11,415 bases of DNA. Source: Thermotogota bacterium (GTDB taxonomy: Bacteria > Thermotogota > Thermotogae > UBA12178). The notes under the pieces are model-generated. The model made no database searches, was not told the DNA's origin, and saw only the letters and a list, made by a program, of their open reading frames with translations. Location: assembly GCA_003538775.1 (NCBI GenBank), contig DPRG01000050.1:1-11415 (forward strand). Reading direction: 5' to 3'. Below, piece by piece: positions 1 through 11,415 of this stretch. The position numbers and the translations under genes were made by a program. Position 1 is the first letter of the stretch. Every line of letters begins with the position of its first letter.

Positions 1-266
1 TCGGCGCCTCGCAAGACTTAAAAACCGAGATGTGTGATGAGGATAGAAAGACGAGAGATTCCAGGGCTGTTAAGCAGATCGTTTCAATAAAGTGCTGAAA
101 CAGAGGGTTTAATCTCCAAGTGAGTCGTTTTGCGGATGCGAGAGAGGATACAAGCGAGTGCGAGATGTAAGATCGTATACGCTTTTGCAACCTATCGTTT
201 GAAAGATCGACCATACTCCTGCTTTTCGATTTTTCGAACACACACTCACACTCAGAGCAGACGGAT

Positions 267-294
267 TTGTCCAGAAAGATCTGTGTAGTATAAT
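267..294 (+). promoter_or_regulatory. Putative sigma70-type promoter of proAB (-35 TTGTCC 267-272, 16-bp spacer, -10 TATAAT 289-294)
   Basis: Hexamers read directly in the sequence. They sit ~45 nt upstream of the proA GTG, which is preceded by a GAGGAGGG RBS at 325-332. Confidence 0.4.
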
Positions 295-339
295 TCCCAA
301 AATCATCTGAGGACCATCGGAATCGAGGAGGGAAAGCCT

Positions 340-1584
340 GTGAGTGAACTTCTCGAAAAAGCGCAACGTGTGAGGGAAGCGTGGGAGATCTTGAAAACGT
401 GCCGTGCGCAGGAGAAAAACGAGGCTATACTGAAAATTGCGGAAGCATTGGATGTCGAGAGAAAAGCGATACTGGAGGCAAATCAAAGAGATGTAGAAGC
501 TGCCAAGGAACGAGGCGTGAAAGCGTCGTTGATCGACCGACTCCTTCTAAATGAGAAACGAATCGACTCCATGATCGAATCCTGCGAAGTGGTCGTGAAG
601 TTGAAAGACCCTGTTGGAGAAATCATTGACTCCTGGGTGAGAGAAGACGGTCTGAGGATCAGCAGGGTCAGAGTACCTATCGGTCCCATAGGCGTTGTTT
701 ACGAATCCAGGCCCAACGTCACAGTAGAAACCAGTGTCTTGGCCATAAAAAGCGGAAACTCCATACTGCTCAGGGGAGGTTCAGACGCTATAAACTCCAA
801 CAAAGCCATCGTTTCTGCCATGAAAAAAGCCTTGAAGGAATCGAGGATACCAGAAAGCAGTGTGGAGTTCATAGAAAGCACCGACAGGGCTCTGGTTGGA
901 GAGATGATAAAGCTTGAGGGTTATCTCTCTTTGATCGTTCCTCGGGGAGGCTACCAATTGATAAACTACGTCCGCAAAAATGCGACCGTTCCAGTGTTGG
1001 AAACGGGTGTGGGGAACTGTCACATATACGTGGACGAAAGCGCTGATTTGGAGAAGGCGATACCGGTGATCGTCAACGCCAAGGTCCAAAGGCCTGGCAC
1101 CTGCAACGCTGCCGAAAAGCTTCTGGTGCATGAGAAAATAGCCAACATTTTTCTGCCCAGAGTTGTGAAAGCACTACAAGAGCACGGAGTGGAAGTGAGA
1201 GGCTGTGAAAAAACTCAAAAGGTAGTGAATGTCAAACCCGCTACCGCCATCGATTGGGAAACGGAGTATCTGGACCTCATCATCGCGGTGAAAGTGGTGC
1301 GCGACGTGAACGAAGCCATAGAGCATGTGAAACGCTATTCCACTGGACATTCGGAGGCTATCATTACAGAGAACTACTCCAACGCACGCAAATTCGTCGA
1401 CTCTGTGGATGCCGCAGCGGTGTACGTCAACGCCTCCACACGCTTCACAGATGGTGGCCAGTTCGGGTTCGGCGCAGAGATAGGCATCAGTACGCAGAGA
1501 CTTCACGCCAGGGGACCTGTAGGATTGAGGGAGCTCACCACTTATAAGTACGTGGTTCTGGGCGACTACCATGTGAGGGGATGA
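340..1584 (+). CDS. proA: Gamma-glutamyl phosphate reductase (glutamate-5-semialdehyde dehydrogenase)
   Basis: 414-aa ORF with a GTG start 7 nt after a GAGGAGGG RBS. The translation matches the ProA family throughout (VPIGPIGVVYESRPNVT, catalytic Cys in RPGTCNAAEKLLVHE, YSTGHSEAIITEN). From memory it is very similar to T. maritima ProA. Confidence 0.95.
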   Translation: MSELLEKAQRVREAWEILKTCRAQEKNEAILKIAEALDVERKAILEANQRDVEAAKERGVKASLIDRLLLNEKRIDSMIESCEVVVKLKDPVGEIIDSWVREDGLRISRVRVPIGPIGVVYESRPNVTVETSVLAIKSGNSILLRGGSDAINSNKAIVSAMKKALKESRIPESSVEFIESTDRALVGEMIKLEGYLSLIVPRGGYQLINYVRKNATVPVLETGVGNCHIYVDESADLEKAIPVIVNAKVQRPGTCNAAEKLLVHEKIANIFLPRVVKALQEHGVEVRGCEKTQKVVNVKPATAIDWETEYLDLIIAVKVVRDVNEAIEHVKRYSTGHSEAIITENYSNARKFVDSVDAAAVYVNASTRFTDGGQFGFGAEIGISTQRLHARGPVGLRELTTYKYVVLGDYHVRG

Positions 1585-1585
1585 G

Positions 1586-2653
1586 ATGGGTAAGATCGTC
1601 GTAAAAGTCGGTAGCAACCTGTTAGTAGATGAACACCACAGCCTCAACAAAACCTACATAGCGGAACTCTGCCGGGAAGTGGCAAAACTCATATGGGAGG
1701 GTCACAAGGTTGCCATCATCACTTCAGGTGCTCGAGCAGCTGGATACGGGTATCTGAAATCAAAACTCAAAAGTCCAGATCTCTATATGAAGCAAGCTCT
1801 CTGCTCGGTGGGCCAAGTTCAGCTGATGAAGGTCTACGAAAACGCCTTCGATTTTTACGGTATAAAGATCGCACAGATACTTTTGACCAGGGATACCTTC
1901 ACCAACAGGAAAAGGTATTTGAACCTTCGCAACACCTTGATAGGCCTTTCTGAAATCGGCGCTTTGCCAGTCGTGAACGAGAACGACGCCGTGGCCGTGG
2001 AAGAGATCACTCTTGGCGACAACGATATGTTGGCAGCGATGTTTGCCATTGCGTGGAACGCAGATTATCTCGTTTTGCTCTCCACAGTGGAAGGTGTCTT
2101 AAACGATCGAGGAGAAGTGATTGAGGTCTATTCCGAAAATGTGAAACTTAAGAAATTGGGAAAGAGCTCCTGGGGAACGGGAGGTATTCGAACCAAGATC
2201 GAAGCAGCTACAAAAGCATCCACTGCTGGTGTGAGATCGTGCATCTGCAACGGAGAGAGAGTCGAAAACATCTCTCGTTTTGTTGGCGGTGAAACCGTCG
2301 GTACGGTATTCGAACCCCGAATTGACCATCTCCGAGCGAAGAAAGCATGGATAGGCCTTCTATCAGAACCTTCGGGCAGGATCTGGGTAAACGCTGGAGC
2401 TGAAGAAGCTCTCAAAGATGGGAAAAATCTTTTACCAGTAGGGGTCACAAAGGTAGAAGGAGAGTTCGATGCAGGAGATGTCGTAGAAATATTGGGCGAG
2501 AGTGGAAAGATCGTCGGCAGGGGGATAGTGAATTTCTCATCCGATGAGATGGAAAAGATCAAGGGGGTCAAGACTAATCGCTTGAAGCAGATCTTGGGCT
2601 ATGATGCCAGCAAGACCGTGATACACATAGACAACATGTGGGTGATTGGCTGA
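1586..2653 (+). CDS. proB: Glutamate 5-kinase with C-terminal PUA domain
   Basis: 355-aa ORF starting 1 nt after the proA stop (TGAgATG). It has the N-terminal VVKVGSNLL kinase motif and a C-terminal PUA-like segment (GRIWVNAGAEEAL...GDVVEI). Confidence 0.95.
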   Translation: MGKIVVKVGSNLLVDEHHSLNKTYIAELCREVAKLIWEGHKVAIITSGARAAGYGYLKSKLKSPDLYMKQALCSVGQVQLMKVYENAFDFYGIKIAQILLTRDTFTNRKRYLNLRNTLIGLSEIGALPVVNENDAVAVEEITLGDNDMLAAMFAIAWNADYLVLLSTVEGVLNDRGEVIEVYSENVKLKKLGKSSWGTGGIRTKIEAATKASTAGVRSCICNGERVENISRFVGGETVGTVFEPRIDHLRAKKAWIGLLSEPSGRIWVNAGAEEALKDGKNLLPVGVTKVEGEFDAGDVVEILGESGKIVGRGIVNFSSDEMEKIKGVKTNRLKQILGYDASKTVIHIDNMWVIG

Positions 2654-2663
2654 ACGTTAGAAA

Positions 2664-2689
2664 AACGGGTGGTTTTTGCCACCCGTTTT
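2664..2689. terminator. Bidirectional rho-independent terminator (stem 2664-2672 AACGGGTGG / 2679-2687 CCACCCGTT, loop TTTTTG)
   Basis: A perfect 9-bp GC-rich stem with an A-run on the 5' side and a T-run on the 3' side. It lies immediately after the proB stop and abuts the stop codon (2689-2691) of the convergent minus-strand small gene. Confidence 0.7.
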
Positions 2690-2883
2690 CAGTTGTTGCA
2701 CTGTATGAAATAACTTATCGACCTGTTCCATGTCGCCTCTTGATCCTTTGTGAAATAACAAGCGGGAAGTTCGCCATGAGATCTGTGGTATGCAATACAC
2801 TCGCAGCAAATACCCTTCCTCGGACATGAGGGATACGAACAGTTACATCTTTCCAGGTTTCTTTCTTGGTTTACGCAGTTCAC
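2689..2883 (-). CDS. Small Cys-rich protein (64 aa; CxC-x5-CP-x5-CCxC...H...H...C; zinc-ribbon-like / 'cysteine-rich small domain'-like)
   Basis: GTG start at 2883 preceded by a GGAGGTGA RBS 7 nt upstream. Eight Cys and two His in 64 aa. It ends at the bidirectional terminator and is co-oriented with the upstream VIT1 gene. Confidence 0.55.
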
Positions 2884-2974
2884 ACTCTCACCTCCATTTG
2901 CGTTTATTATTGCACATCCAGAACAGTACCGAAGCAGTCTTTGATAACCTAACGATCAGGAATGTATGATGAAA

Positions 2975-3808
2975 TCATATCTCTATGTGGAAAAACCGCT
3001 TCACGAAAAGTCCTATGAAGAACGAAGCTGCGGCAACACCCATGCTTATGATGAACATCTCCAAGAAGTTCTTCTTGAATTCTTGATTTTTGACGACCGA
3101 TACGAAGAAAGTAAACACGGATATGACGAGAACGGCGTTTATCGCCGTCACAGTCAGTGCAACGAAGGGATTGGCAAAGATCAGGTAAGGGAAGGTCAAG
3201 ATTAGAACGGTGAAGATGTAAGCGATACCCGTATAAAGCGCAGATTTTAAGGGGTTCTTCTCGTTGCTCTCCGATTTCCTCGCCAAGTAATCCGATGCGG
3301 CCATCGATAAAGCTGCGGCTATACCGGTGATAATACCTGACAGAGCAACAATTGGAGTTTTCTGAATGGCAAGGGTTAGCCCAGCAAGAGCTCCTGTCAG
3401 CTCGACAAGCGCATCGTTCAATCCAAGAACCATTGAGCCTATATACTCGAGTCTTTCCTCGTTTAACAATCCGAGTAGCGTTTTTTCGTGCTCTTTCTCA
3501 TCTTCCATGATCTCTTTCAACAGCTCGTCATTTGATATTCCGTAAGCCATTTGAGCTCTATCTTCGTTTCTTTCCATGAGCTTCAAAGAGAAAGTTATTC
3601 CCAACAGTTTGGCAAGGACGAGATAGAAATATACCTTCAGCCCACTCGGCTTAACCTCTCTCCCAGTTTTATTTTTGAGCCTGTGATAATGGTCCAATTC
3701 GTCCGATGCTATCTTTCGAAGAATCTCCGAGTTGTTTGGATCCATCTTAGCAAGCTTGGTGTAAACAACATATTCTGTTATCTCGTTCTTTTGGAATTTG
3801 AGTAGCAT
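2975..3808 (-). CDS. VIT1/CCC1-family Fe/Mn transporter with N-terminal ferritin-like (rubrerythrin-like) domain
   Basis: 277-aa ORF with ATG at 3808 and an AAGGAGGT RBS 6 nt upstream. The N-terminal ~150 aa has di-iron-type ExxH signatures (SDELDHYHRL, EDEKEHEKTL). The C-terminal half is hydrophobic with about four TM segments, as in the CCC1/VIT1 family. Confidence 0.85.
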   Translation of the reverse strand: MLLKFQKNEITEYVVYTKLAKMDPNNSEILRKIASDELDHYHRLKNKTGREVKPSGLKVYFYLVLAKLLGITFSLKLMERNEDRAQMAYGISNDELLKEIMEDEKEHEKTLLGLLNEERLEYIGSMVLGLNDALVELTGALAGLTLAIQKTPIVALSGIITGIAAALSMAASDYLARKSESNEKNPLKSALYTGIAYIFTVLILTFPYLIFANPFVALTVTAINAVLVISVFTFFVSVVKNQEFKKNFLEMFIISMGVAAASFFIGLFVKRFFHIEI

Positions 3809-3898
3809 CGAGAAACCTCCTTGGAAGGGTTACCGTATTATACCAGTGTAGTGTTATAATTATTCTGAATCAAAAAATCGTTCTGGAGGTGCTATTAA
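3809..3898. promoter_or_regulatory. Divergent promoter region between VIT1-like gene (-) and EncFtn gene (+)
   Basis: Plus-strand extended -10 TGTTATAAT (3852-3860). Minus-strand TATAAT (complement of 3837-3842). RBSs are present for both flanking genes. An AT-rich palindrome ATAATTAT (3857-3864) overlaps the + strand -10. Confidence 0.4.
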
Positions 3899-4240
3899 AT
3901 GCCAGAGTTTGTCAATCCGTTCAGTGGGAAGGTTCCTGAAAGGAAACTCACTCTTTCTGAATTGATCAGGGCCATAAGGCTCAACATCGCGGCAGAGCAT
4001 GAAGCGGTTCATCTCTACATGGCACATGCAGAAGCGACGGATCATCCGCTGGCTAAGAAGGTACTCATCGACATTGCGAACGAGGAGAGGGTCCATATCG
4101 GTGAATTCACGAAGCTTCTGGAAATACTGACTAAAGACGAGGCCAAGTACATGGCCGAAGGAGCAAAAGAAGTGGAGGAGATGATGGAGTCTGAATCGGG
4201 TGAAGAACCGACGATTGGTTCGATGAAAGAAGGTGAGTGA
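3899..4240 (+). CDS. Encapsulin-associated ferritin-like protein (EncFtn/Flp) cargo with C-terminal targeting peptide
   Basis: 113-aa ORF with a GGAGGTG RBS 7 nt upstream. It carries the EncFtn-type metal-binding motifs (AAEHEAVHLY, NEERVHIGEF). The acidic linker ends in TIGSMKEGE, which resembles GSL-type encapsulin cargo-loading peptides. The stop codon overlaps the start of the encapsulin fragment. Confidence 0.8.
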   Translation: MPEFVNPFSGKVPERKLTLSELIRAIRLNIAAEHEAVHLYMAHAEATDHPLAKKVLIDIANEERVHIGEFTKLLEILTKDEAKYMAEGAKEVEEMMESESGEEPTIGSMKEGE

Positions 4241-4497
4241 TGATGCCGAACAAATTTTTAATGCGTGAGGGCGCACCCTTCAGTCAGGAATTCTGGCAAC
4301 TGCTCGATGAAACTGTGATGAACGTTGCCAGAGCCCAGCTCACGGGGAGGAAGATCGTTTCAGTTAAAGGTCCCTTTGGCCTCGGTTTAAAACACATCTC
4401 TCTTGGGGAATACGACAGTGGAAGAGTGATGTCCGATCACGCTGGTGACAAGGAGAAGACCTTGTACTCATACCCCGATATTTCTATTTCTAGCTGA
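4237..4497 (+). pseudogene. 5' remnant of a family-1 (HK97-fold) encapsulin shell gene, truncated
   Basis: The first ~60 codons (about 4240-4420) align with the N-terminus of T. maritima encapsulin as I recall it (FLxRxxAPxxxxxWQxxD...QLxGRKxVxVxGPxG......LGE). After that the frame reads into the antisense strand of the convergent GH13 gene and stops at 4495-4497. No room is left for the ~200 further codons an encapsulin needs. Confidence 0.6.
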
Positions 4498-5840
4498 GCT
4501 TCATTCTCATCTATGATAAACGGCTTTGCGTTGCCAACAAGGTCCACGGCTTTCCTATACTTGGGGTTCAGTTTCTCAATGTCGATCCTTGCGATGTCCC
4601 CTTTATCCGAGTTGTTGAGCACTATCATGATCGCCTGGTCTTCCGACTCTCTTATGTAGCAATAAACGCCGTTGTGGGAGTACAAACTCTGGAATCTTCC
4701 CTTTCTCAACGCAGGATGCCTCTTTCTCAGTCTAATCATAATCTTGTAAAGCTGCAGGAGTTCTCTATTTTGGCGCTTCTCATCCCATATGAAAGGTCTT
4801 CGACAATCTGGGTCTCCATCACCCTCCATTCCGATTTCATCACCATAATAGATAACAGGAGCACCGACATATGTCATCAAGAAAACTATCGCTAATTTCA
4901 TCCGCCTCACATCGCCTTTACAAAGCGAAAGAAACCGAGGTTTATCGTGACTTCCTAAAAGGTTGAACATGGCATAGTTCGCCCATTTGGGATAACTTCC
5001 TCGTAAAAAACGGATCCTACCGTCGAATTCCCGTGCATCGCACTCGCTTTTTGCGAAGAAATCGATTAAGCTTTCCCATAGCTTGTAATTCATAACCGCG
5101 TCTAAACAGTCCCCCTTGAACCACGATGAAGCTATTCCCATCACTTCTCCAACTACATAAGCATCGCTTTTTGTTTCTTTGGCGACCCGCCTTATGTCTT
5201 TCACGAAACTCGGTTCTAAGTACTCGGTGGTGTCGAGTCGCCACCCATCGATATCCGCTTCTTCTATCCAATATCTGACAACTCTCAGCAAATACTTGCG
5301 CGTTTCGGGATTATTCGTGTTGAATTCGGGCATGTTGGGGATCCCACCCCAACACATGTAATTGGGTTCAGGTTCTCTCACAATGGGGAAATCTTCGATC
5401 ACGAACCAGTCCCGGTATTTGGAGCGTTCACCCTTTTCCAATACGTCCTGGAAAGCGAAAAAGCGCTCGCCGCAATGATTGAACACGCCATCCAGTATTA
5501 TCTTCATGCCGCGTTTGTGAAGTTCCTTCACTAACTCTTTCAACACTTCCTTGCTACCGAATTGGGGATCTATTTCGAAGTAGTCTTCCGTATCGTACTT
5601 GTGGTTAGAGGGTGCTTTGAATATGGGATTTAGATAAAGCGCATTCACGCCCAGTTCTTCCAGATAATCCAACTTCTCCATGATCCCCACGAGATCGCCA
5701 CCGAAAAAATTGTGAGCCGTAGGTTTGTCACCCCATTCGGCAACATCGGCTGGGTCGTTGTTTCTATCACCGTTGTAGAAACGATCAGGAAAGATCTGAT
5801 AGAATATCGCATCTTTAACCCAATCTGGTGGTTTCATCAT
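4437..5840 (-). CDS. GH13 alpha-amylase-family hydrolase (cyclomaltodextrinase/neopullulanase-like, no signal peptide)
   Basis: All four GH13 conserved regions are present (ILDGVFNHCG, DGWRLDTTEYL, VVGEVMG, NLLGSHDKPR). The preferred start is ATG at 5840, which has a GGAGGTGGAG RBS upstream and forms an ATGA overlap with the malG-like stop. The 504-aa track ORF starting at 5951 is an upstream in-frame extension. Confidence 0.9.
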   Translation of the reverse strand: MMKPPDWVKDAIFYQIFPDRFYNGDRNNDPADVAEWGDKPTAHNFFGGDLVGIMEKLDYLEELGVNALYLNPIFKAPSNHKYDTEDYFEIDPQFGSKEVLKELVKELHKRGMKIILDGVFNHCGERFFAFQDVLEKGERSKYRDWFVIEDFPIVREPEPNYMCWGGIPNMPEFNTNNPETRKYLLRVVRYWIEEADIDGWRLDTTEYLEPSFVKDIRRVAKETKSDAYVVGEVMGIASSWFKGDCLDAVMNYKLWESLIDFFAKSECDAREFDGRIRFLRGSYPKWANYAMFNLLGSHDKPRFLSLCKGDVRRMKLAIVFLMTYVGAPVIYYGDEIGMEGDGDPDCRRPFIWDEKRQNRELLQLYKIMIRLRKRHPALRKGRFQSLYSHNGVYCYIRESEDQAIMIVLNNSDKGDIARIDIEKLNPKYRKAVDLVGNAKPFIIDENEAQLEIEISGYEYKVFSLSPA

Positions 5841-6748
5841 CCTTTCACTCCACCTCCAGTCAAACCAGAAATGATTTGATCTTGCAAGCTGAAGAAGATC
5901 ACGAGCACGGGTAACGAACCCAAAATCGCGGCAGCGGCAAACGTTCCCCAATGACGAGCATAATCCGTAGTAATAAAGAAATTCAGTCCTACCGCAAGGG
6001 TGTACTTTTTCGTACCTGTCAAGATAACGCTCGCAAGAAGGTACTCAGAATAATTTCCTATAAACGTGAGGATGAATATCACAGTCAGTATGGGGCGAGC
6101 CAAGGGTAAGATGATCTTCACAAACGCTTGGAAGCGCGTAGCTCCATCTATCAGAGCTGCTTCTTCAAGATCGTGGGGTATGGTGTCGAAATAGCCTTTC
6201 ATCAGCCACGTGTTAAAACCGAGGGCGCTACCAAGGTATACGAGTATCAACCCGGCGTGTGTGTTCAAACCCATGAAGGGAACGTATTTCCCGATCCAAA
6301 GGAGTAGGAGATAAAGTGCGACGAATGCCAGCATGACTGGAAACATTTGAACCAAAAGTAATGTCAAAAGCAAGGTTCTTCTCCCTCGGAAATGGAAACG
6401 AGAGAACGCGTAAGATGCCAAGGCGCATAAGAAAACTGCTATCGAAGAAGCGATTGCAGAAACCTTAAGACTGTTCCACAACCACAACATGAACGGGTAG
6501 CGATCATCGGTGAAAAGTACTTTGTAGTGTTCGAGTGTGGGATGCTTGGGAATCAGTTCTTGACCATACAATGTACCCCCTGGATTGATGGAAGCCGAAA
6601 AAATCCAAACGACAGGGAAGAACGCGAATGCGATTGCCGCAAATATGATCATATGCTGTATAACCTTTTTGAAAATCAGTGTTTTTTTCTTCAATTCCTT
6701 CCCTCCTACTCGCATGAGCTCGATAGATCCGCTTTTATAGAGACTCAC
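5837..6748 (-). CDS. malG: ABC sugar transporter permease, MalG-like
   Basis: Polytopic membrane protein with the EAA loop EEAALIDGATRFQAFVKIILPLARP. The start could be GTG at 6748 (overlapping the malF-like stop) or ATG at 6715. It ends in an ATGA overlap with the GH13 gene. Confidence 0.88.
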   Translation of the reverse strand: MSLYKSGSIELMRVGGKELKKKTLIFKKVIQHMIIFAAIAFAFFPVVWIFSASINPGGTLYGQELIPKHPTLEHYKVLFTDDRYPFMLWLWNSLKVSAIASSIAVFLCALASYAFSRFHFRGRRTLLLTLLLVQMFPVMLAFVALYLLLLWIGKYVPFMGLNTHAGLILVYLGSALGFNTWLMKGYFDTIPHDLEEAALIDGATRFQAFVKIILPLARPILTVIFILTFIGNYSEYLLASVILTGTKKYTLAVGLNFFITTDYARHWGTFAAAAILGSLPVLVIFFSLQDQIISGLTGGGVKG

Positions 6749-8267
6749 TCATCTCTTCCAACCGCTTGGTAAAACGGAAGTTTGCAGCACTTATCGAACC
6801 GATTATTAGAAATATGATGACAGAGATTGCCGCAGCGTAACCATATTGAGCTCCTGCACCACCAAATGCCAGCTTATAAGTGTAGGAAATCAGTATGTCC
6901 GTTGCACCTGCGGGGGTTTGTGATCCCGGAATAGGAGGTCCCCCACCTGTGAGCAGATATATTACCGTGAAGTTGTTGAAGTTGAACGCAAAACTTCCGA
7001 TCAAAAGGGGTGCTAAGGAGATCATCAACAGTGGAAGCGTAATGGAACGAAATCTTTGCCAACTACTTGCTCCGTCCACTCGCGCTGCTTCATAGAGTTC
7101 TGGTGAAATGCTTTGCAACGCTCCCAACGATATGAGCATCATGTAGGGAAAACCAAGCCATAAATTGACGATGAGCAAGGCAACCTTAGCCCAAAAAGGA
7201 TCTTGAAACCAGCTTATTCTTGTGGATAGGAGTTTTTGAAGGATGTCATTTATGACGCCAAAGTTCGTGTTGAAAAGCCCGCGCCAAATCAGGACAGAGA
7301 TATAACCTGGGATAACGTAAGGCACGATCAAGAGTGTTCGATACAGATACCTGAACCTCAGAGTGCTGTCGTTCAACAAGATCGCCAGTGTCAGTCCAAG
7401 AACAAATGTGGTGAAAACCGACAGTAGCGCCCACAAAAAGGTCCATGTGAAGACACGAAGGAAAGGGCCCGAAATTTGTGGGTTTCGAAGGATATCTATA
7501 AAGTTTTTGAAGCCGACATAGGCTCTGAAGCCAGGCGAAAGTTTCTCGCCGTCTGACGACACAAACGTTCCATTTACTGGTCTGTAAACCTTCCCGGTCT
7601 TGAGATTAATGAGTACATCGCTTTTCTCGTCGTAGCGGTACAGTGGTTTAAAAACTCGGAATTCATCGATGGAGTAAAACTTAACGATACCGTCGTTGTA
7701 CTTGAATGCCAGGTTTTGAACCTCGTTGAGATTTTGTATGATTTGTACTTTGCTCATCCTTTGATAACCATCAATCTCTACGATTTCACCATCTTGATAT
7801 ACGAATAATGGATCGTGCACATCTGCAAGTTTCAAATGATCACCTACTGATAAATAAGCTTTATTCGTTTTTCTGGAGACGAGCAGAACTCGCATATCTC
7901 CTTCCGCATTTTTGAAAATCAGGTACGAAAAACGTTCACCGTTTTCGGGCTGAAAATACTCATTCGTGAACTGGGAAATTACTTGAGACTTGGAGAGAAT
8001 GTTGCCTGTTCCGTAGTTCATAAAAGATATATTGATGTTGTATATGATCGGATAAACAACCATTAACCCAAATAACACCAATCCCGGTAGCAGATACCGC
8101 AAAGGATAGGCTTTCCTTAAAAGCAAGGCAGCGTTAAGTCCCACCAATCCAAAGATCAATACGAACAAAAGGCCCCAACCCTTTGCTTGATAAAGACCAA
8201 CGCAAGCCCATATACCTAAGGCGTCCACCGCACTTAAAACTATAATCTTCAAAAGGATAGCTATCAT
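6735..8267 (-). CDS. malF: ABC sugar transporter permease, MalF-like (large periplasmic P2 loop)
   Basis: 510 aa with an EAA motif (YEAARVDGASSWQRFRSITLPL). A ~200-aa hydrophilic insertion after TM3 is typical of the MalF subfamily. Confidence 0.88.
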   Translation of the reverse strand: MIAILLKIIVLSAVDALGIWACVGLYQAKGWGLLFVLIFGLVGLNAALLLRKAYPLRYLLPGLVLFGLMVVYPIIYNINISFMNYGTGNILSKSQVISQFTNEYFQPENGERFSYLIFKNAEGDMRVLLVSRKTNKAYLSVGDHLKLADVHDPLFVYQDGEIVEIDGYQRMSKVQIIQNLNEVQNLAFKYNDGIVKFYSIDEFRVFKPLYRYDEKSDVLINLKTGKVYRPVNGTFVSSDGEKLSPGFRAYVGFKNFIDILRNPQISGPFLRVFTWTFLWALLSVFTTFVLGLTLAILLNDSTLRFRYLYRTLLIVPYVIPGYISVLIWRGLFNTNFGVINDILQKLLSTRISWFQDPFWAKVALLIVNLWLGFPYMMLISLGALQSISPELYEAARVDGASSWQRFRSITLPLLMISLAPLLIGSFAFNFNNFTVIYLLTGGGPPIPGSQTPAGATDILISYTYKLAFGGAGAQYGYAAAISVIIFLIIGSISAANFRFTKRLEEMSESL

Positions 8268-8275
8268 GATTCAAG

Positions 8276-8308
8276 AAGTGATGACCCCGCGAGCCGGGGT
8301 CATCACTT
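8276..8308. promoter_or_regulatory. Intercistronic stem-loop between malE-like and malF-like genes (14-bp perfect stem AAGTGATGACCCCG / CGGGGTCATCACTT)
   Basis: The inverted repeat is read directly. It sits 27 nt after the malE-like stop and immediately before the malF-like start codon. Confidence 0.55.
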
Positions 8309-8334
8309 CCGTTTCACCCCTTTCTCGGCACTGC

Positions 8335-9537
8335 TCACTGGCACTTCAAGGTTTTCTTAATCGTCATTACCGCATTTTCAAGCGCTTCCTCTGGCGATTG
8401 CTTTTGACTGCAGAACAGGGTTATTGCATCTGCCCAAGCTGACCAGACGGCGCTCATCTCTGGAATCGCTGGCATCGGAATGCCAACGGCGATGTTTTCA
8501 GCAAATCCTTCGACAATCGGATCTTGTGCTACAACATCCAGAGCGGGCTTGTATGCAGGTACACGCGGATCCGCTTCATACAATGCAAGCATGGTATCCT
8601 TCGTCGCTACATAATCTTTCAAAAAGAAAGCAGCCAATGCCTTGTTCTTGCTGAACTTGCTCACCATGAATCCTTGAACGCCAACGAATGGCTTGGGAAC
8701 GTGCCCCTCCACGGTGGGAATTCTTGCAACTCCGACATCTATACCACTATTCCTCGCCCCTGCAACAGCCCAAGGACCTGTCAGTATCATACCAACCTTG
8801 CCTTCGTTGAAGAGGCTCGTCATCGTTTGATAGTCTATCCCTTCTGGAACTAATCCTTCTTTGAGCAGATCCAATAGGAGGTAGGCTCCTTTGATGGCTC
8901 CTTCGCTCGCCAAACCTATATCGCAGGGATTGAGTGTGCCGTCTGGGTTCTTTCCGAATATATACCCACCGTAAGCCGTAAAAAACGGGAAGCTGTGGTA
9001 AGGATCGGGTTGGGAAGCTTGCGTCAAGAATCCGTATTCCTTCTTTTCAGGATGTGTGAGTTTTCTGGCAATCTCTAAGAGTTCCTTCCAAGTTTTCGGA
9101 GGTGTTGGAACGAGTTTCCTGTTGTATATGAGCCCAATGGCTTCAGTAGCGTACGGCAACCCGTATATCTTGTTGCCGTAGGTGAACGCTTCTATGGCCG
9201 TTTTCACGAATTTGTCCTTGATCTCTTTCATGAAGTTCAGAGGCTCGATCAATCCATTGGCAACCAGTTGTCCCAGCCAGTCGTGAGCGCCTATTATGAT
9301 GTCCGGCCCTTCTCCAGCCGGTCCAGCAACGCTCAACTTATCTCTGATATCACCGAATGGCATTTCCTGGACTTCTACGGGCACACCGTACAATTCAGTA
9401 AATTGCTTACCCAAATCTTCAATGATCGGTTTTCTGAGCTCATCGGCCCAGATCAAGAGTTTCCCCACTTCCGATGCGAAGATAACCCCGCTCGCCACGA
9501 CCACCAAACCCAACAAGACGACCAAGAATCTCTTCAC
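8335..9537 (-). CDS. malE: Maltose/maltodextrin-type solute-binding protein (CUT1 family) with N-terminal signal peptide
   Basis: 400 aa with a GTG start at 9537 preceded by an AGGAGGTGA RBS. The N-terminus is hydrophobic (MKRFLVVLLGLVVVASGVIFA). Overall it resembles MalE-like SBPs (GKLLIWAD, GLPYATEAIGLIYN, motifs near the C-terminus). Confidence 0.88.
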   Translation of the reverse strand: MKRFLVVLLGLVVVASGVIFASEVGKLLIWADELRKPIIEDLGKQFTELYGVPVEVQEMPFGDIRDKLSVAGPAGEGPDIIIGAHDWLGQLVANGLIEPLNFMKEIKDKFVKTAIEAFTYGNKIYGLPYATEAIGLIYNRKLVPTPPKTWKELLEIARKLTHPEKKEYGFLTQASQPDPYHSFPFFTAYGGYIFGKNPDGTLNPCDIGLASEGAIKGAYLLLDLLKEGLVPEGIDYQTMTSLFNEGKVGMILTGPWAVAGARNSGIDVGVARIPTVEGHVPKPFVGVQGFMVSKFSKNKALAAFFLKDYVATKDTMLALYEADPRVPAYKPALDVVAQDPIVEGFAENIAVGIPMPAIPEMSAVWSAWADAITLFCSQKQSPEEALENAVMTIKKTLKCQ

Positions 9538-9620
9538 CCCAGTTCACCTCCTAAACCTAAACTTGAATATAATATGCAATGTCCGAAATCTTATGGTAAC
9601 TCACACTTTTCGATCACCGA

Positions 9621-10622
9621 TCACCTCCCTGTGGAACTTCTCACAATAAGCTTCGGTTTGAAGCGCACTTCATAACGTGGTGAATCGTCTCCTACTATCC
9701 TTTTTAAGAGAATAGTGGCCGCCTTCTTCCCCATTTCCACGATCGGCTGTCTAACTGTTGTAAGTCCAAGTTTTTCCGACCATTTCAAATCGTCAAATCC
9801 AACCACCCTCACATCAGTACCGAGCGTCAACCCCGATTCTTTTACGGCCTCCACAACTCCCATTGCGAGAGTGTCACAAACTGCAAAGATGTTTACAGGA
9901 AGCGTTGCCCTTTGGAGGATTTCCCTCGCAACGGTAAACGCCTCTGGGAAGCTTTCTCCAATCTCGAAAACATGAGAATTTGGAAGTGCGAGCCCCGCTT
10001 CCTTGAGAGCTTTTTCGAATCCCCGTCTTCTCTGTTCAAAAACACCACTGGCAAACTCAGGCTTGCCCTTTTCGCTTATGCTGATCAAAAACACTTCTCC
10101 TCGTTTCTCAAGCAAGTGCTTGCCAGCTAAATACCCGCCATACACGTTGTCAACGTAAACGGAATCGTACTTCTTGGAACACGCATCTACCAAAACAACT
10201 GGCTTTTTCGTCGGCACATGTCCTCCCTCAAACAGTTTTTCAGGAATGAGCGACACAAGAAGTACGCCATCACTTTGATAGGGAAAAGCGTTGGGATTAC
10301 TGTAGTCAACAAGCCGTCTTTTTGAAAACAATGGGTATATCGAACTGTCATACCAAGCATTGCTGAGCTCATCGTCTATTCCTTCGAATAAATATGCGTA
10401 GAATTCAGAACTCATGATGGGAAGAAAGATGGAAACCATATAGGTCTTGTTGGATGCTAAACTACGCGCAAATGGATTAGGACGATACCCAAGCTGTGCA
10501 ATAGCCCTGAGAACCTTCATCCGGTTCTCGGGTTTCACCGTCGGATTATTGTTGAGAACCTTAGAAACCGTTCCAAGGCTCACTCCCGCTAATCTCGCAA
10601 CATCTTTGATGCTCGGCTTCAT
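9621..10622 (-). CDS. LacI-family transcriptional regulator
   Basis: 333 aa with the N-terminal HTH IKDVARLAGVSLGTVSKVLNN and a periplasmic-binding-protein-like sugar-binding core. ATG at 10622 with a GAGAGGAGAG RBS. It is the first gene of the minus-strand cassette. Confidence 0.9.
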   Translation of the reverse strand: MKPSIKDVARLAGVSLGTVSKVLNNNPTVKPENRMKVLRAIAQLGYRPNPFARSLASNKTYMVSIFLPIMSSEFYAYLFEGIDDELSNAWYDSSIYPLFSKRRLVDYSNPNAFPYQSDGVLLVSLIPEKLFEGGHVPTKKPVVLVDACSKKYDSVYVDNVYGGYLAGKHLLEKRGEVFLISISEKGKPEFASGVFEQRRRGFEKALKEAGLALPNSHVFEIGESFPEAFTVAREILQRATLPVNIFAVCDTLAMGVVEAVKESGLTLGTDVRVVGFDDLKWSEKLGLTTVRQPIVEMGKKAATILLKRIVGDDSPRYEVRFKPKLIVRSSTGR

Positions 10623-10647
10623 CTACGGGATCTCTCCTCTCGCACGG

Positions 10648-10665
10648 AAATTAAACGTTTCATTT
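10648..10665. promoter_or_regulatory. LacI-type operator O1 (AAATTAAACGTTTCATTT, one mismatched pair)
   Basis: Palindrome centred on CG at 10656/10657, 26-43 nt upstream of the lacI-family start. It shares the AAACGTTT core with O2. Confidence 0.6.
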
Positions 10666-10762
10666 AAATGGTGGATGAAATATACATGCTCTATGCTGAA
10701 CGCTTTTCAAGGTCATAACTGATTTTGGCTCGCCACTTATCGCACTTTCTTTTTATGAGTAA

Positions 10763-10782
10763 TGAATGAAACGTTTCATTCA
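10763..10782. promoter_or_regulatory. LacI-type operator O2 (TGAATGAAACGTTTCATTCA, perfect 20-bp palindrome)
   Basis: Perfect dyad read directly in the sequence. Its centre is 116 bp from the O1 centre (~11 helical turns). A + strand TATAAT follows at 10787-10792. Confidence 0.65.
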
Positions 10783-10926
10783 AAATTATAATACAGCACC
10801 CGAGTTATGTCAAGGACATCTCGAATGCTGATCTACCCCCAGTTTTTCAGGGAGGCTTGGTTTTCAGCATGGATGGCCACATAACGACAAGATAAAGGAC
10901 TCAACTGTGAGAATCATTAAAATAAT

Positions 10927-10962: not shown

Positions 10963-11415
10963 ATGAAGAAAAGAATCAATCCCAGAAGAATTATACTCAT
11001 TGTCAGGGACTTATTCAACCCTGTCCTTGGAAAACATGCTTTGAGGAACATGATCCTCTCCATGATAGCGATAGCTCTCAGTCCCAAGATGAGGGTAAAC
11101 GAAATATCTAGGCACTTGCCCACAAAAGTCAAAGGTGATAAGCACAAGCAAAAGAGATTACTGAGGTTTCTCGACAGAGGGATCCCCACCAGTGAGGTGA
11201 TGGAACTGTGGGCAAAGTATGTGCTGAACACACTGAAGCCAAGGGTCATCATCGTGGACGAGACAGACCTTCCGGGAGGATTCAAAGCGATAGTGGCTGC
11301 TGTTCCTTTCAGGAAGAGAGCGGTACCGATTTACTTCATGACATACAGCCATGAACAGATAGATGAGATGAAGTACCTCAGTTGGAACCAGATAGTGGAT
11401 ATGTTTGTAGATAAG
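10963..11415 (+). mobile_element. DDE transposase gene of an IS element (IS4/IS5-superfamily-like, family uncertain), 5' partial CDS running off the window
   Basis: Open frame of 151 codons from ATG at 10963 with no stop before the window end. It is absent from the ORF track because it has no stop in the window. The basic N-terminus (MKKRINPRRIILIVRDLFNPVLGKHALRN...) and the motif VIIVDETDL are consistent with the first catalytic Asp region of DDE transposases. The track's minus-strand ORFs here are antisense artefacts. Confidence 0.6.

What the first reader, a model, noticed from the sequence alone, without database searches (positions are those of the whole stretch)
3899..4497. Orphaned encapsulin cargo: intact EncFtn/Flp followed by a shell gene cut off after ~60 codons
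The cargo gene keeps its ExxH ferroxidase motifs and a C-terminal GS-rich targeting tail (TIGSMKEGE). The co-transcribed family-1 encapsulin gene has a stop/start overlap at 4237-4243 and retains only its N-terminal helix region. That region is the part that normally forms the cargo-binding pocket. The sequence then reads into the antisense strand of a convergent amylase gene. Either the nanocompartment was destroyed by acquisition of the downstream cassette, leaving a free EncFtn, or a shell gene exists elsewhere in the genome. Both readings are biologically interesting because EncFtn is thought to depend on the shell for iron storage.
Basis: partly seen in the sequence, partly recalled or inferred. 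Interest (0 to 1): 0.8.

Follow-up and report, generated by a model that had tools for sequence, protein, structure and literature searches.

The report
Truncated spare encapsulin operon, cargo retained
This is a real, decaying stump of an iron-storage nanocompartment shell gene sitting behind an intact cargo (EncFtn) gene, but the same genome bins carry a complete second operon with a full shell, so the cargo is probably not orphaned here.

Summary
Window 3899-4240 encodes an intact EncB/EncFtn-family cargo with its ferroxidase residues and a C-terminal targeting peptide. The next ORF (4237-4497) matches only positions 1-60 of family-1 encapsulin, then runs antisense into a convergent GH13 gene. 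It is not an assembly error: 23 contigs carry it, and seven near-identical ones from seven samples plus a second lineage (92% nt identity) show the same junction. The stump is a pseudogene: dN/dS about 1, a stop codon and frameshift in the sister lineage, and no C-terminal remnant in the window. 'Orphaned' is only half right. The closest full-length shell (P0026, 261 aa, 80% identical to the stump) lies in an intact DUF6485-VIT1-EncFtn-shell operon. NCBI accessions and locus tags put that operon in the same MAGs as this contig (PWP37_98/99 versus PWP37_1385/1386). The two EncFtn copies are 109/113 identical and share the same targeting tail. The roughly 10.5-kb window segment looks like an import from the Guaymas lineage, with an IS4 transposase gene on one flank. 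In that lineage no close shell homologue was found, the EncFtn tail is cut off by a nonsense mutation and VIT1 is decayed, yet the EncFtn core still shows purifying selection. This is ordinary gene decay with a useful natural comparison.

The parts
2689..2883 (-). Small Cys-rich DUF6485 gene, the outer gene of the conserved iron module
   Evidence: 81% aa identity to the DUF6485 (PF20095) gene at the same position in the intact locus L088. Block homology to L088 starts at 2696.
2975..3808 (-). Ferritin-like domain + VIT1 membrane protein (MbfA-like architecture), divergent from EncFtn; intact here
   Evidence: Pfam VIT1 60.5 bits; N-terminal Rubrerythrin 21.8 bits, just under the cutoff. 81% aa identity to the L088 copy. 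It is a pseudogene in sister lineage L015/L103.
3809..3898 (.). Divergent intergenic region with an extended -10-like TGTTATAAT (3852-3860) and a GGAGGTG Shine-Dalgarno (3886-3892)
   Evidence: Read from the sequence. TGCTATAAT is conserved in the intact L088 locus. The -10 stretch is deleted in L015. The consensus promoter scan found none, so the promoter is inferred only.
3899..4240 (+). EncFtn / EncB-family ferritin-like cargo gene, intact
   Evidence: NCBIfam EncB_fam 119.5 bits > 90. PDB hits EncC and P. furiosus EncFtn. dN/dS 0.10 versus the sister lineage. 109/113 identical to the EncFtn of the intact operon.
4202..4237 (+). C-terminal targeting peptide EEPTIGSMKEGE
   Evidence: Aligns with the conserved tail of 11 relatives. 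Identical over 12/12 residues to the tail of the resident EncFtn P0122, including the Leu->Met change.
4243..4422 (+). Remnant of the family-1 encapsulin shell gene (codons 1 to about 60: N-terminal helix and first P-domain/E-loop elements)
   Evidence: Pfam Linocin_M18 profile positions 2-60 of 253. 80% identical to residues 1-56 of the full-length shell P0026. dN/dS 1.07 versus sister; stop at codon 21 plus a 1-nt deletion in the sister lineage.
4423..4436 (.). Breakpoint interval between the shell remnant and the 3' end of the GH13 gene
   Evidence: Shell homology ends at 4410-4422. GH13 stop codon at 4437-4439. No repeat at the junction.
4423..4497 (+). Non-homologous read-through tail of the remnant ORF, antisense to the GH13 3' end
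   Evidence: No similarity to any encapsulin. Overlaps the GH13 gene by 61 nt.
4437..5837 (-). Convergent GH13 alpha-amylase/cyclomaltodextrinase-like gene, first gene met of a LacI-SBP-MalF-MalG-amylase cluster (to 10622)
   Evidence: Pfam Alpha-amylase 276 bits. Malt_amylase_C matched to position 74 of 75, so the C-terminus is complete. Gene calls.
10963..11415 (+). IS4-family transposase ORF running off the contig; marks the right edge of the roughly 10.5-kb segment shared with the sister lineage (285-10816)
   Evidence: NCBIfam transpos_IS4_2 on the longer L001 copy. Homology limits. All assemblies break at the same place.

Best explanation
The locus is a second, degraded copy of a four-gene iron-handling module: DUF6485, a ferritin-like/VIT1 membrane protein, EncFtn cargo and a family-1 encapsulin shell. 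An old rearrangement joined codon ~60 of the shell gene to the 3' end of a maltodextrin gene cluster. The remaining stump is a non-functional pseudogene that merely happens to remain an open reading frame in this strain.

Shown:
- The truncation is real, and it is shared with a second lineage from Guaymas-type hydrothermal sediments.
- The stump evolves neutrally while EncFtn is under strong purifying selection.

Inferred:
- The ~10.5-kb segment (proAB, iron module, mal cluster) carries an IS4 transposase gene on its right flank, and every assembly breaks at both of its ends. It was imported from the Guaymas-type lineage into an oil-field Thermotogota genome.
- That genome also has its own complete module, with a full 261-aa shell next to valS.
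- EncFtn from this window keeps a targeting peptide identical to that of the resident EncFtn. It is therefore most likely made from its own promoter and packaged in trans into the resident shell as an extra ferroxidase cargo, much as M. xanthus EncA loads both EncB and EncC.
- In the donor-type lineage no close shell homologue was found. There the targeting peptide has been cut off and VIT1 has decayed.
For: Reality of the junction:
- 23 contigs carry the EncFtn gene; the seven retrieved, from seven samples, all have the 85-aa stump beside it and are at least 99.9% identical to the window.
- The junction is colinear in L015/B41_G15 at 91.7% nt identity and in independent assemblies L103-L105.

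The stump is a pseudogene:
- dN/dS is 1.07 (6 syn, 23 nonsyn), versus 0.10 for the EncFtn core and 0.06-0.16 for three of the four mal genes checked (amylase 0.12, MalF 0.16, SBP 0.13). The 0.06 MalG value rests on an uncertain start, and the LacI fragment was cut out of frame, so its value is not usable. Fisher p = 2e-4 for stump versus EncFtn core.
- The sister lineage has a TAA at codon 21 and a 1-nt deletion.
- Family-invariant residues are changed: D14G and K34R.
- There is no C-terminal remnant in the window.

A shell in the same bins:
- P0026 is full length, with 210 bits on encap_f1.
- It is the closest relative of the stump, at 80% identity.
- It lies in the operon DUF6485-VIT1-EncFtn-shell-valS-mutS.
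- Accessions pair up in three series. Window EncFtn: HCZ06273.1, MDI3517472.1, MDK2865194.1, tag PWP37_1386. Intact EncFtn and shell: HCZ07102/3, MDI3516127/8, MDK2863907/6, tags PWP37_99/98. Only the PWP37 prefix firmly ties both loci to one MAG; reading the MDI, MDK and HCZ series as three separate bins that each hold both loci is an inference from accession numbering.
- GC is 46.2% versus 46.6%, and tetranucleotide r = 0.89, closer than to the other relatives compared apart from the sister lineage L015.

Ancestry of the segment:
- Window versus Guaymas lineage is 92-95% nt identical, but valS-mutS of the oil-field versus Guaymas lineage is 73% nt / 85% aa identical.
- Window block versus resident block has dN 0.10-0.12, the same as ValS/MutS between the lineages.
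- Homology ends at 285 and 10816, with a transposase beyond.
- No Guaymas-type ValS or MutS was retrieved from the oil-field samples.

Trans-loading plausibility:
- EncFtn is 109/113 identical to the resident copy, and the tail is 12/12 identical.
- Multi-Flp loading of one shell is documented for M. xanthus (PMC10402063).
Against: - 'Same genome' rests on MAG membership and composition, not on a closed genome. No contig bridges the IS flanks; the longest contig is 11.7 kb.
- MAGs from similar pipelines can repeat a mis-binning.
- None of these MAGs appeared among GTDB species representatives in the EncFtn scan, which could reflect quality filtering.
- Sample lists from the contig look-ups are collapsed, so co-occurrence could be confirmed directly only for SRR2147318.
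- Expression, decamer formation and packaging were not tested.
- The promoter is only a conserved extended -10-like motif.
- The uneven synonymous divergence (EncFtn dS 0.53 versus 0.2 in the mal genes) is unexplained.
Confidence: 0.7

Rival explanations
1. Truly orphaned cargo. The window contig belongs to a separate organism, an oil-field relative of the Guaymas lineage, that has no shell at all. It is merely co-binned with the organism that carries the intact operon. EncFtn would then act as a free soluble ferroxidase, perhaps together with the adjacent VIT1-type iron transporter.
For: - The segment is 92-95% identical to the Guaymas lineage, whereas housekeeping genes of the co-binned genome are only 73% nt identical to that lineage.
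- The Guaymas lineage itself shows that a shell-less state exists, and its EncFtn core stays conserved there: 0 nonsyn versus 12 syn in codons 18-75 on that branch, and 4 syn versus 0 nonsyn after tail loss.
- No contig physically links the two loci.
Against: - One locus-tag prefix (PWP37) and three NCBI accession series (HCZ, MDI, MDK) hold both loci.
- No Guaymas-type ValS or MutS was found in any retrieved oil-field assembly, although the 11-kb contig is assembled in more than 20 of them.
- The targeting tail is intact and identical to the resident EncFtn tail, including a Leu->Met change absent from the Guaymas lineage and from the more distant relatives used as outgroups.
- GC and tetranucleotide composition match the co-binned genome.
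Confidence: 0.2
2. Assembly or sequencing artefact. A chimeric join or a frameshift error hides a full-length shell gene.
For: The window is a short MAG contig that ends in a repeat.
Against: - Seven retrieved assemblies from three assembly sources (ENA, JGI, Logan) show the identical junction; 23 contigs carry the EncFtn gene.
- The junction is conserved in a lineage that is 8% diverged.
- tblastn with seven full-length shells finds nothing beyond codon ~62 in any frame.
Confidence: 0.01
3. The 84-86-aa N-terminal piece is a functional small protein, for example a soluble decoy or chaperone that binds the EncFtn targeting peptide through the N-terminal helix that normally forms part of the binding pocket.
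For: - The ORF is open and translationally coupled to EncFtn in this strain.
- In full-length shells the N-terminal helix plus the P-domain form the targeting-peptide site (PMC10402063).
Against: - dN/dS is 1.07; the sister lineage has a stop and a frameshift.
- Two family-invariant residues are changed.
- The binding pocket also needs P-domain parts that are missing.
- The last 25 codons are antisense read-through of another gene.
Confidence: 0.04

Closest known systems
Family 1 (classical) encapsulin Flp/EncFtn operons, e.g. Rhodospirillum rubrum EncFtn-Enc and the Myxococcus xanthus EncA/EncB/EncC system
   Same: - The cargo is an EncB/EncFtn-family two-helix ferritin-like protein with the E/Y/E/H ferroxidase residues and a C-terminal T-[IV]-G-S-[LM]-K targeting motif.
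- The cargo gene sits directly upstream of the shell gene, translationally coupled to it.
- The best solved matches are M. xanthus EncC (cargo) and EncA (shell N-terminus).
   Different: - The shell gene here stops being a shell after ~60 codons.
- The functional shell is at another locus in the same bins.
- The module additionally carries a divergent ferritin-like/VIT1 gene and a DUF6485 gene.
Cargo encoded away from its shell gene (M. xanthus EncC and EncD; proposed BfrB in M. tuberculosis)
   Same: - A cargo with a targeting peptide that would have to be loaded by a shell encoded elsewhere.
- Two Flp paralogues sharing one shell, as for EncB and EncC (PMC10402063). BfrB is mentioned in PMC8346489. 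The distant genomic position of encC and encD is from my own knowledge of McHugh et al. 2014.
   Different: Here the arrangement arose by decay of a second complete operon, apparently acquired horizontally, rather than by dispersal of cargo genes. Loading has not been demonstrated.
Family 4 'A-domain' encapsulins (truncated HK97-fold proteins)
   Same: A short, ~100-aa protein derived from the HK97/encapsulin fold that sits next to an enzyme gene (PMC8346489).
   Different: - Family 4 keeps the A-domain and is a conserved family (DUF1884).
- This stump keeps the N-terminal helix region only, matches Linocin_M18 positions 2-60, evolves neutrally and is broken in the sister lineage. It is a remnant, not a family.

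Membership tests
EncFtn / EncB-family encapsulin cargo (NCBIfam NF058679) | Profile score above the curated cutoff | tested here: met
   119.5 bits versus cutoff 90. The older TIGR04535 model gives 87 bits, below its cutoff of 125.
EncFtn / EncB-family encapsulin cargo (NCBIfam NF058679) | Ferroxidase-centre residues (R. rubrum E32, Y39, E62, H65; PMC5012862) | tested here: met
   E33, Y40, E63 and H66 are present. They are aligned with P. furiosus EncFtn and M. xanthus EncC and are invariant in the 12 sequences.
EncFtn / EncB-family encapsulin cargo (NCBIfam NF058679) | C-terminal targeting peptide (GSLK-type) | tested here: met
   The tail is PTIGSMKEGE. 11 relatives have PT[IVLF]GSL[KR]. 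The Met variant is shared with the EncFtn of the intact operon.
EncFtn / EncB-family encapsulin cargo (NCBIfam NF058679) | Decameric ring, ferroxidase activity, packaging into a shell | not testable with these tools
   Needs biochemistry and native shell purification.
Family 1 encapsulin shell protein (Pfam PF04454, NCBIfam NF041155) | Full HK97-fold length (about 260 aa: N-helix, P-domain, E-loop, A-domain) | tested here: not met
   Only profile positions 1-60 are matched. NCBIfam gives 53.5 bits, below the cutoff of 100. There is no remainder in any frame of the window.
Family 1 encapsulin shell protein (Pfam PF04454, NCBIfam NF041155) | Sequence descent from a family-1 shell gene | tested here: met
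   Pfam E 3e-16. 80% identity to the N-terminus of the full-length P0026. The gene has the same position after EncFtn as in L008-L012, L088 and L117.
Family 1 encapsulin shell protein (Pfam PF04454, NCBIfam NF041155) | Purifying selection / intact ORF across relatives | tested here: not met
   dN/dS is 1.07. The sister lineage has a stop plus a frameshift.
MbfA-like ferritin-domain/VIT1 iron transporter (neighbouring gene 2975-3808) | N-terminal ferritin-like (erythrin) domain plus C-terminal VIT1 domain | tested here: inconclusive
   Pfam VIT1 is met at 60.5 bits. Rubrerythrin gives 21.8 bits, just below the 22.8 cutoff. The NCBIfam FeExpMbfA model gave no hit.

The most novel reading that the evidence does not exclude
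In the Guaymas-type sister lineage, EncFtn works without any nanocompartment. That lineage shares the truncated shell, yielded no close shell homologue in a 5.8-billion-protein search, and has lost the targeting peptide to a nonsense codon. Even so, the 102-aa ferroxidase core still shows only synonymous change (0 nonsyn versus 12 syn in codons 18-75, and 4 versus 0 after tail loss). This would be a natural, selected, shell-independent EncFtn. The copy in this window would be the same gene re-recruited as a trans-loaded cargo after transfer into a shell-bearing genome.
Probability: 0.25. Interest if true: 0.6.

Novelty: new member of a known kind. Interest (0 to 1): 0.38.

Why it matters
EncFtn is held to be unable to store iron without its shell (PMC5012862, PMC8346489). 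A pair of lineages carrying the same shell truncation is therefore a ready-made natural experiment on how far the cargo depends on the compartment. One lineage has a full shell elsewhere and an intact targeting tail. The other has no close shell homologue and has lost the tail, yet keeps a conserved ferroxidase core. The locus also shows that encapsulin modules can move between Thermotogota lineages on transposase-associated segments. Finally, it shows that gene-neighbourhood surveys can miscall such loci, either as 'orphan cargo' or as shell hits: the stump carries a significant Linocin_M18 Pfam match. Beyond that it is ordinary pseudogene decay and does not reveal a new system.

Tried and rejected
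1. Assembly chimera or frameshift. Rejected.
2. A search for the missing C-terminal 200 codons elsewhere in the window, for example beyond the mal cluster as if the cassette had been inserted into the gene. Nothing scored better than E = 0.16.
3. A word-indexed homologue search with the 86-aa stump alone found only itself. It was superseded by a profile of seven full-length shells.
4. An attempt to find the other half of the gene upstream of valS in the Guaymas lineage. dnaK-hsp20-clpB lies there instead.
5. Two scans of metagenome contigs. That collection does not contain the window contig itself, so the absence of P0026 from it says nothing about co-occurrence.
6. Repeats or IS ends at the breakpoint. 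None were found.
7. tRNA and Rfam scans of the window. Both were empty.
8. The consensus promoter/terminator scan around the junction was uninformative.
9. Gene conversion between the two EncFtn copies as an explanation for the shared Met in the tail. No tract of raised nucleotide identity is visible, so the question is left open.
10. One Pfam call failed on a bad frame and was not repeated. DUF6485 is assigned through the L088 homologue instead.

Full report
**What is in the window.** The window is an entire 11,415-bp MAG contig. NCBI calls it 'MAG TPA: Thermotogae bacterium', and the stump has locus tag DHV12_03930. Gene order:
- proA (340-1584, +) and proB (1586-2653, +)
- a small Cys-rich DUF6485 gene (2689-2883, -)
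- a ferritin-like/VIT1 membrane protein (2975-3808, -)
- EncFtn (3899-4240, +)
- an 86-codon ORF (4237-4497, +)
- a convergent cluster of GH13 amylase, MalG-like, MalF-like, sugar-binding protein and LacI regulator (4437-10622, -)
- an ORF that runs off the right end (from 10963, +)

**Checking the observation.**
- The 113-aa protein passes the NCBIfam EncB-family cargo model (119.5 bits, cutoff 90). Its best solved relatives are M. xanthus EncC and P. furiosus EncFtn.
- E33, Y40, E63 and H66 correspond to the R. rubrum ferroxidase-centre residues E32/Y39/E62/H65 (PMC5012862).
- The tail EEPTIGSMKEGE aligns with a conserved EEPT[IV]GSL[KR]EGE tail in 11 relatives. It also matches the published Gly-Ser-Leu-Lys localisation motif and the M. 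xanthus TP core TVGSL (PMC10402063).
- The next ORF matches Pfam Linocin_M18 only over profile positions 2-60 of 253 (E 3e-16) and encap_f1 over 1-58 of 261. It matches residues 4-58 of EncA and 2-56 of the T. maritima shell.
- tblastn with seven full-length relatives finds shell homology from 4243 to 4416-4422 and nothing else in any frame of the window (best other hit E = 0.16).
- The GH13 stop codon is at 4437-4439, and its C-terminal domain is complete (Malt_amylase_C matched to position 74 of 75).
- The breakpoint therefore lies within about 4423-4436. The last 25 codons of the ORF are antisense read-through. No repeat or IS end sits there.

**Artefact excluded.**
- The EncFtn gene is carried on 23 contigs in ENA, JGI and Logan assemblies. 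The seven retrieved all have an 85-aa Linocin fragment and the convergent amylase next to it. They are 99.95-100% identical to the window, and all break near the same two ends.
- The junction is also colinear, at 91.7% nt identity, in a different lineage. Examples are Guaymas MAG B41_G15 (L015) and three further independent assemblies (L103-L105).

**The stump is a pseudogene; the cargo is not.**
- Window versus L015, Nei-Gojobori dN/dS:

| Region | dN/dS |
|---|---|
| Stump, codons 1-62 | 1.07 (6 syn, 23 nonsyn) |
| EncFtn, codons 1-102 | 0.10 |
| Amylase | 0.12 |
| MalF | 0.16 |
| Sugar-binding protein | 0.13 |

- A MalG value of 0.06 rests on an uncertain start codon. The LacI fragment was cut out of frame, so its value is not usable.
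- The difference between stump and EncFtn core is significant (Fisher p = 2e-4).
- In the sister lineage the stump has a CAA->TAA stop at codon 21 and a 1-nt deletion, both present in independent assemblies.
- In the window the stump has changed two residues that are invariant in seven intact shells, D14G and K34R.

**Where the shell is.**
- A profile of seven full-length relatives was searched against 5.8 billion proteins. One protein, P0026 (261 aa), is far closer to the stump than anything else: 80% identity over residues 1-56, with the next best at 63%.
- P0026 is a complete family-1 shell (210 bits, profile 1-261 of 261).
- It sits in DUF6485 - VIT1 <- -> EncFtn(P0122) - shell - valS - mutS on 38-42-kb contigs. 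These include SRR2147318, the run from which the window-type contig L001 was also assembled.
- Exact-sequence look-ups give paired accessions:

| Protein | Accessions | Locus tag |
|---|---|---|
| Window EncFtn | HCZ06273.1, MDI3517472.1, MDK2865194.1 | PWP37_1386 |
| Window VIT1 | HCZ06272.1, MDI3517471.1, MDK2865193.1 | PWP37_1385 |
| Intact-operon EncFtn | HCZ07102.1, MDI3516127.1, MDK2863907.1 | PWP37_99 |
| Shell (P0026) | HCZ07103.1, MDI3516128.1, MDK2863906.1 | PWP37_98 |

- The shared PWP37 prefix places both loci in at least one MAG. The parallel numbering of the HCZ, MDI and MDK series suggests three bins, but that reading is an inference from accession numbers.
- GC content is 46.2% versus 46.6%, and the tetranucleotide correlation is 0.89. 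This is higher than to the other relatives compared, apart from the sister lineage L015 at 0.96.

**Ancestry of the segment.**
- The window block 2696-4410 is only 75% nt identical to the intact block.
- Synonymous sites are saturated. dN is 0.10-0.12 for VIT1, DUF6485 and the stump, and 0.025 for EncFtn.
- That is the same divergence as between housekeeping genes of the oil-field genome and the Guaymas lineage: ValS and MutS dN 0.10, 85% aa and 73% nt identity. Accessions RKX... and MCD... tie the P0132-type ValS/MutS to the Guaymas-type MAGs.
- Yet the window segment 285-10816 is 92-95% identical to the Guaymas lineage.
- Homology stops abruptly at both sides. An IS4-family transposase ORF follows on the right.
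- In the Guaymas lineage the proA side continues into chromosomal genes.
- Guaymas-type ValS and MutS variants were found only in other samples: SPET22 ERZ234995xx, SRR140000xx, SRR137760xx, SRR21418560, ERZ650341, ERZ27227314 and JGI 3300016457/3300017593. None came from the oil-field runs.

The simplest reading is that a ~10.5-kb Guaymas-type segment, already carrying the truncated shell gene, was transferred into the oil-field genome, which has its own intact module. The alternative is a separate organism that gets co-binned. That would require its 11-kb contig to assemble in more than 20 data sets while none of its housekeeping genes appear. I give it about 0.2.

**How it most likely works (inference).**
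- EncFtn has a strong Shine-Dalgarno sequence and an extended -10-like TGTTATAAT. The motif is conserved as TGCTATAAT in the intact locus.
- The protein is 109/113 identical to the resident EncFtn, with an identical 12-residue tail. This includes a Leu->Met change that the Guaymas lineage and the outgroups lack.
- It is therefore expected to form the usual decamer and be loaded in trans into the P0026 shell as an additional ferroxidase cargo. This parallels EncB plus EncC in the M. xanthus EncA shell (PMC10402063).
- The stump, even if translated through the ATGA-type overlap, lacks the P-domain parts of the peptide-binding pocket and shows no constraint.

**The sister lineage as a natural control.**
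- In the Guaymas lineage VIT1 is broken by stops, frameshifts and a 3' deletion.
- The -10-like element upstream of EncFtn is deleted.
- EncFtn carries GAA->TAA at codon 103, which removes the targeting peptide.
- No second EncFtn was found in B41_G15. No shell 67-99% identical to P0026 exists in the protein collection. More distant shells are not excluded.
- Even so, parsimony with seven outgroups places 0 nonsynonymous and 12 synonymous changes in EncFtn codons 18-75 on that branch.
- The two Guaymas sub-lineages, both already tail-less, differ by 4 synonymous and 0 nonsynonymous changes in codons 1-102, against 8 differences in the 190 nt of the stump.
- This is weak but consistent evidence that a free, tail-less EncFtn is still selected. 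Alternatively, decay began only recently.

**Comparison with known systems and novelty.**
- Cargo and stump both descend from a classical family-1 Flp/EncFtn operon (PMC8346489).
- The stump is not a member of the shell family in any functional sense, because the length, cutoff and constraint tests all fail. It is unrelated to family-4 A-domain encapsulins, which keep a different part of the fold.
- Cargo encoded away from its shell is known. M. xanthus EncC and EncD are examples from my own knowledge of McHugh et al. 2014, and BfrB in M. tuberculosis is mentioned in PMC8346489.
- Literature searches for orphan or pseudogenised EncFtn/encapsulin loci found nothing specific.
- The finding is a new member of a known kind, with an evolutionary twist. 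It is not a new system.

**Uncertainties.**
- There is no physical linkage between the two loci.
- The sample lists returned by the look-ups are collapsed.
- The ancestral arrangement at the breakpoint, and hence the role of the mal cluster in the truncation, is unknown.
- The uneven synonymous divergence (EncFtn 0.53 and VIT1 0.62 versus about 0.2 in the mal genes) is unexplained.

Noticed in passing
window 10649-10668 and 10765-10784: Two near-perfect palindromes, AAT[TG]AAACGTTTCATT, lie 116 nt apart just upstream of the LacI-family regulator gene. They look like LacI/CcpA-type operator sites for the mal cluster.
   Followed up: no
window 10963-11415 (+), and window 1-284: - An IS4-family transposase ORF runs off the right end.
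- Similarity to the sister lineage stops at 10816 on the right and at 285 on the left.
- Every independent assembly breaks near the same two ends. This suggests repeats on both flanks of a ~10.5-kb mobile or imported segment.
   Followed up: partly
window 3852-3860: An extended -10-like TGTTATAAT lies in the divergent VIT1/EncFtn intergenic region. It is conserved as TGCTATAAT in the intact operon L088 but deleted in sister lineage L015.
   Followed up: partly
window 2975-4240 versus 4437-9537, compared with L015: - Synonymous divergence from the sister lineage is uneven: dS 0.53-0.62 in EncFtn and VIT1 versus 0.16-0.23 in the mal genes.
- Nearly all EncFtn changes map to the sister branch: 20 syn + 11 nonsyn there versus 5 + 2 on the window branch.
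- The cause is unknown. It could be recombination, a different donor, or rate heterogeneity.
   Followed up: partly
L015 449-1180; L103 7275-8005: In the Guaymas lineage the ferritin-like/VIT1 gene next to EncFtn is a clear pseudogene, with in-frame stops, frameshifts and loss of the last ~40 codons. The DUF6485 gene appears to be lost.
   Followed up: yes
L008-L012, L088, L117 (loci around EncFtn): The divergent pair of ferritin-like/VIT1 and EncFtn-shell recurs in several Pseudothermotoga-like MAGs. Its flanking genes differ from one to the next (pur operon, valS-mutS, others), so the module seems to relocate often.
   Followed up: partly
L003, corresponding to window 1613: One Logan assembly has a 1-nt insertion in proB, giving a 275-aa call. 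This is either a strain variant or an assembly error.
   Followed up: no
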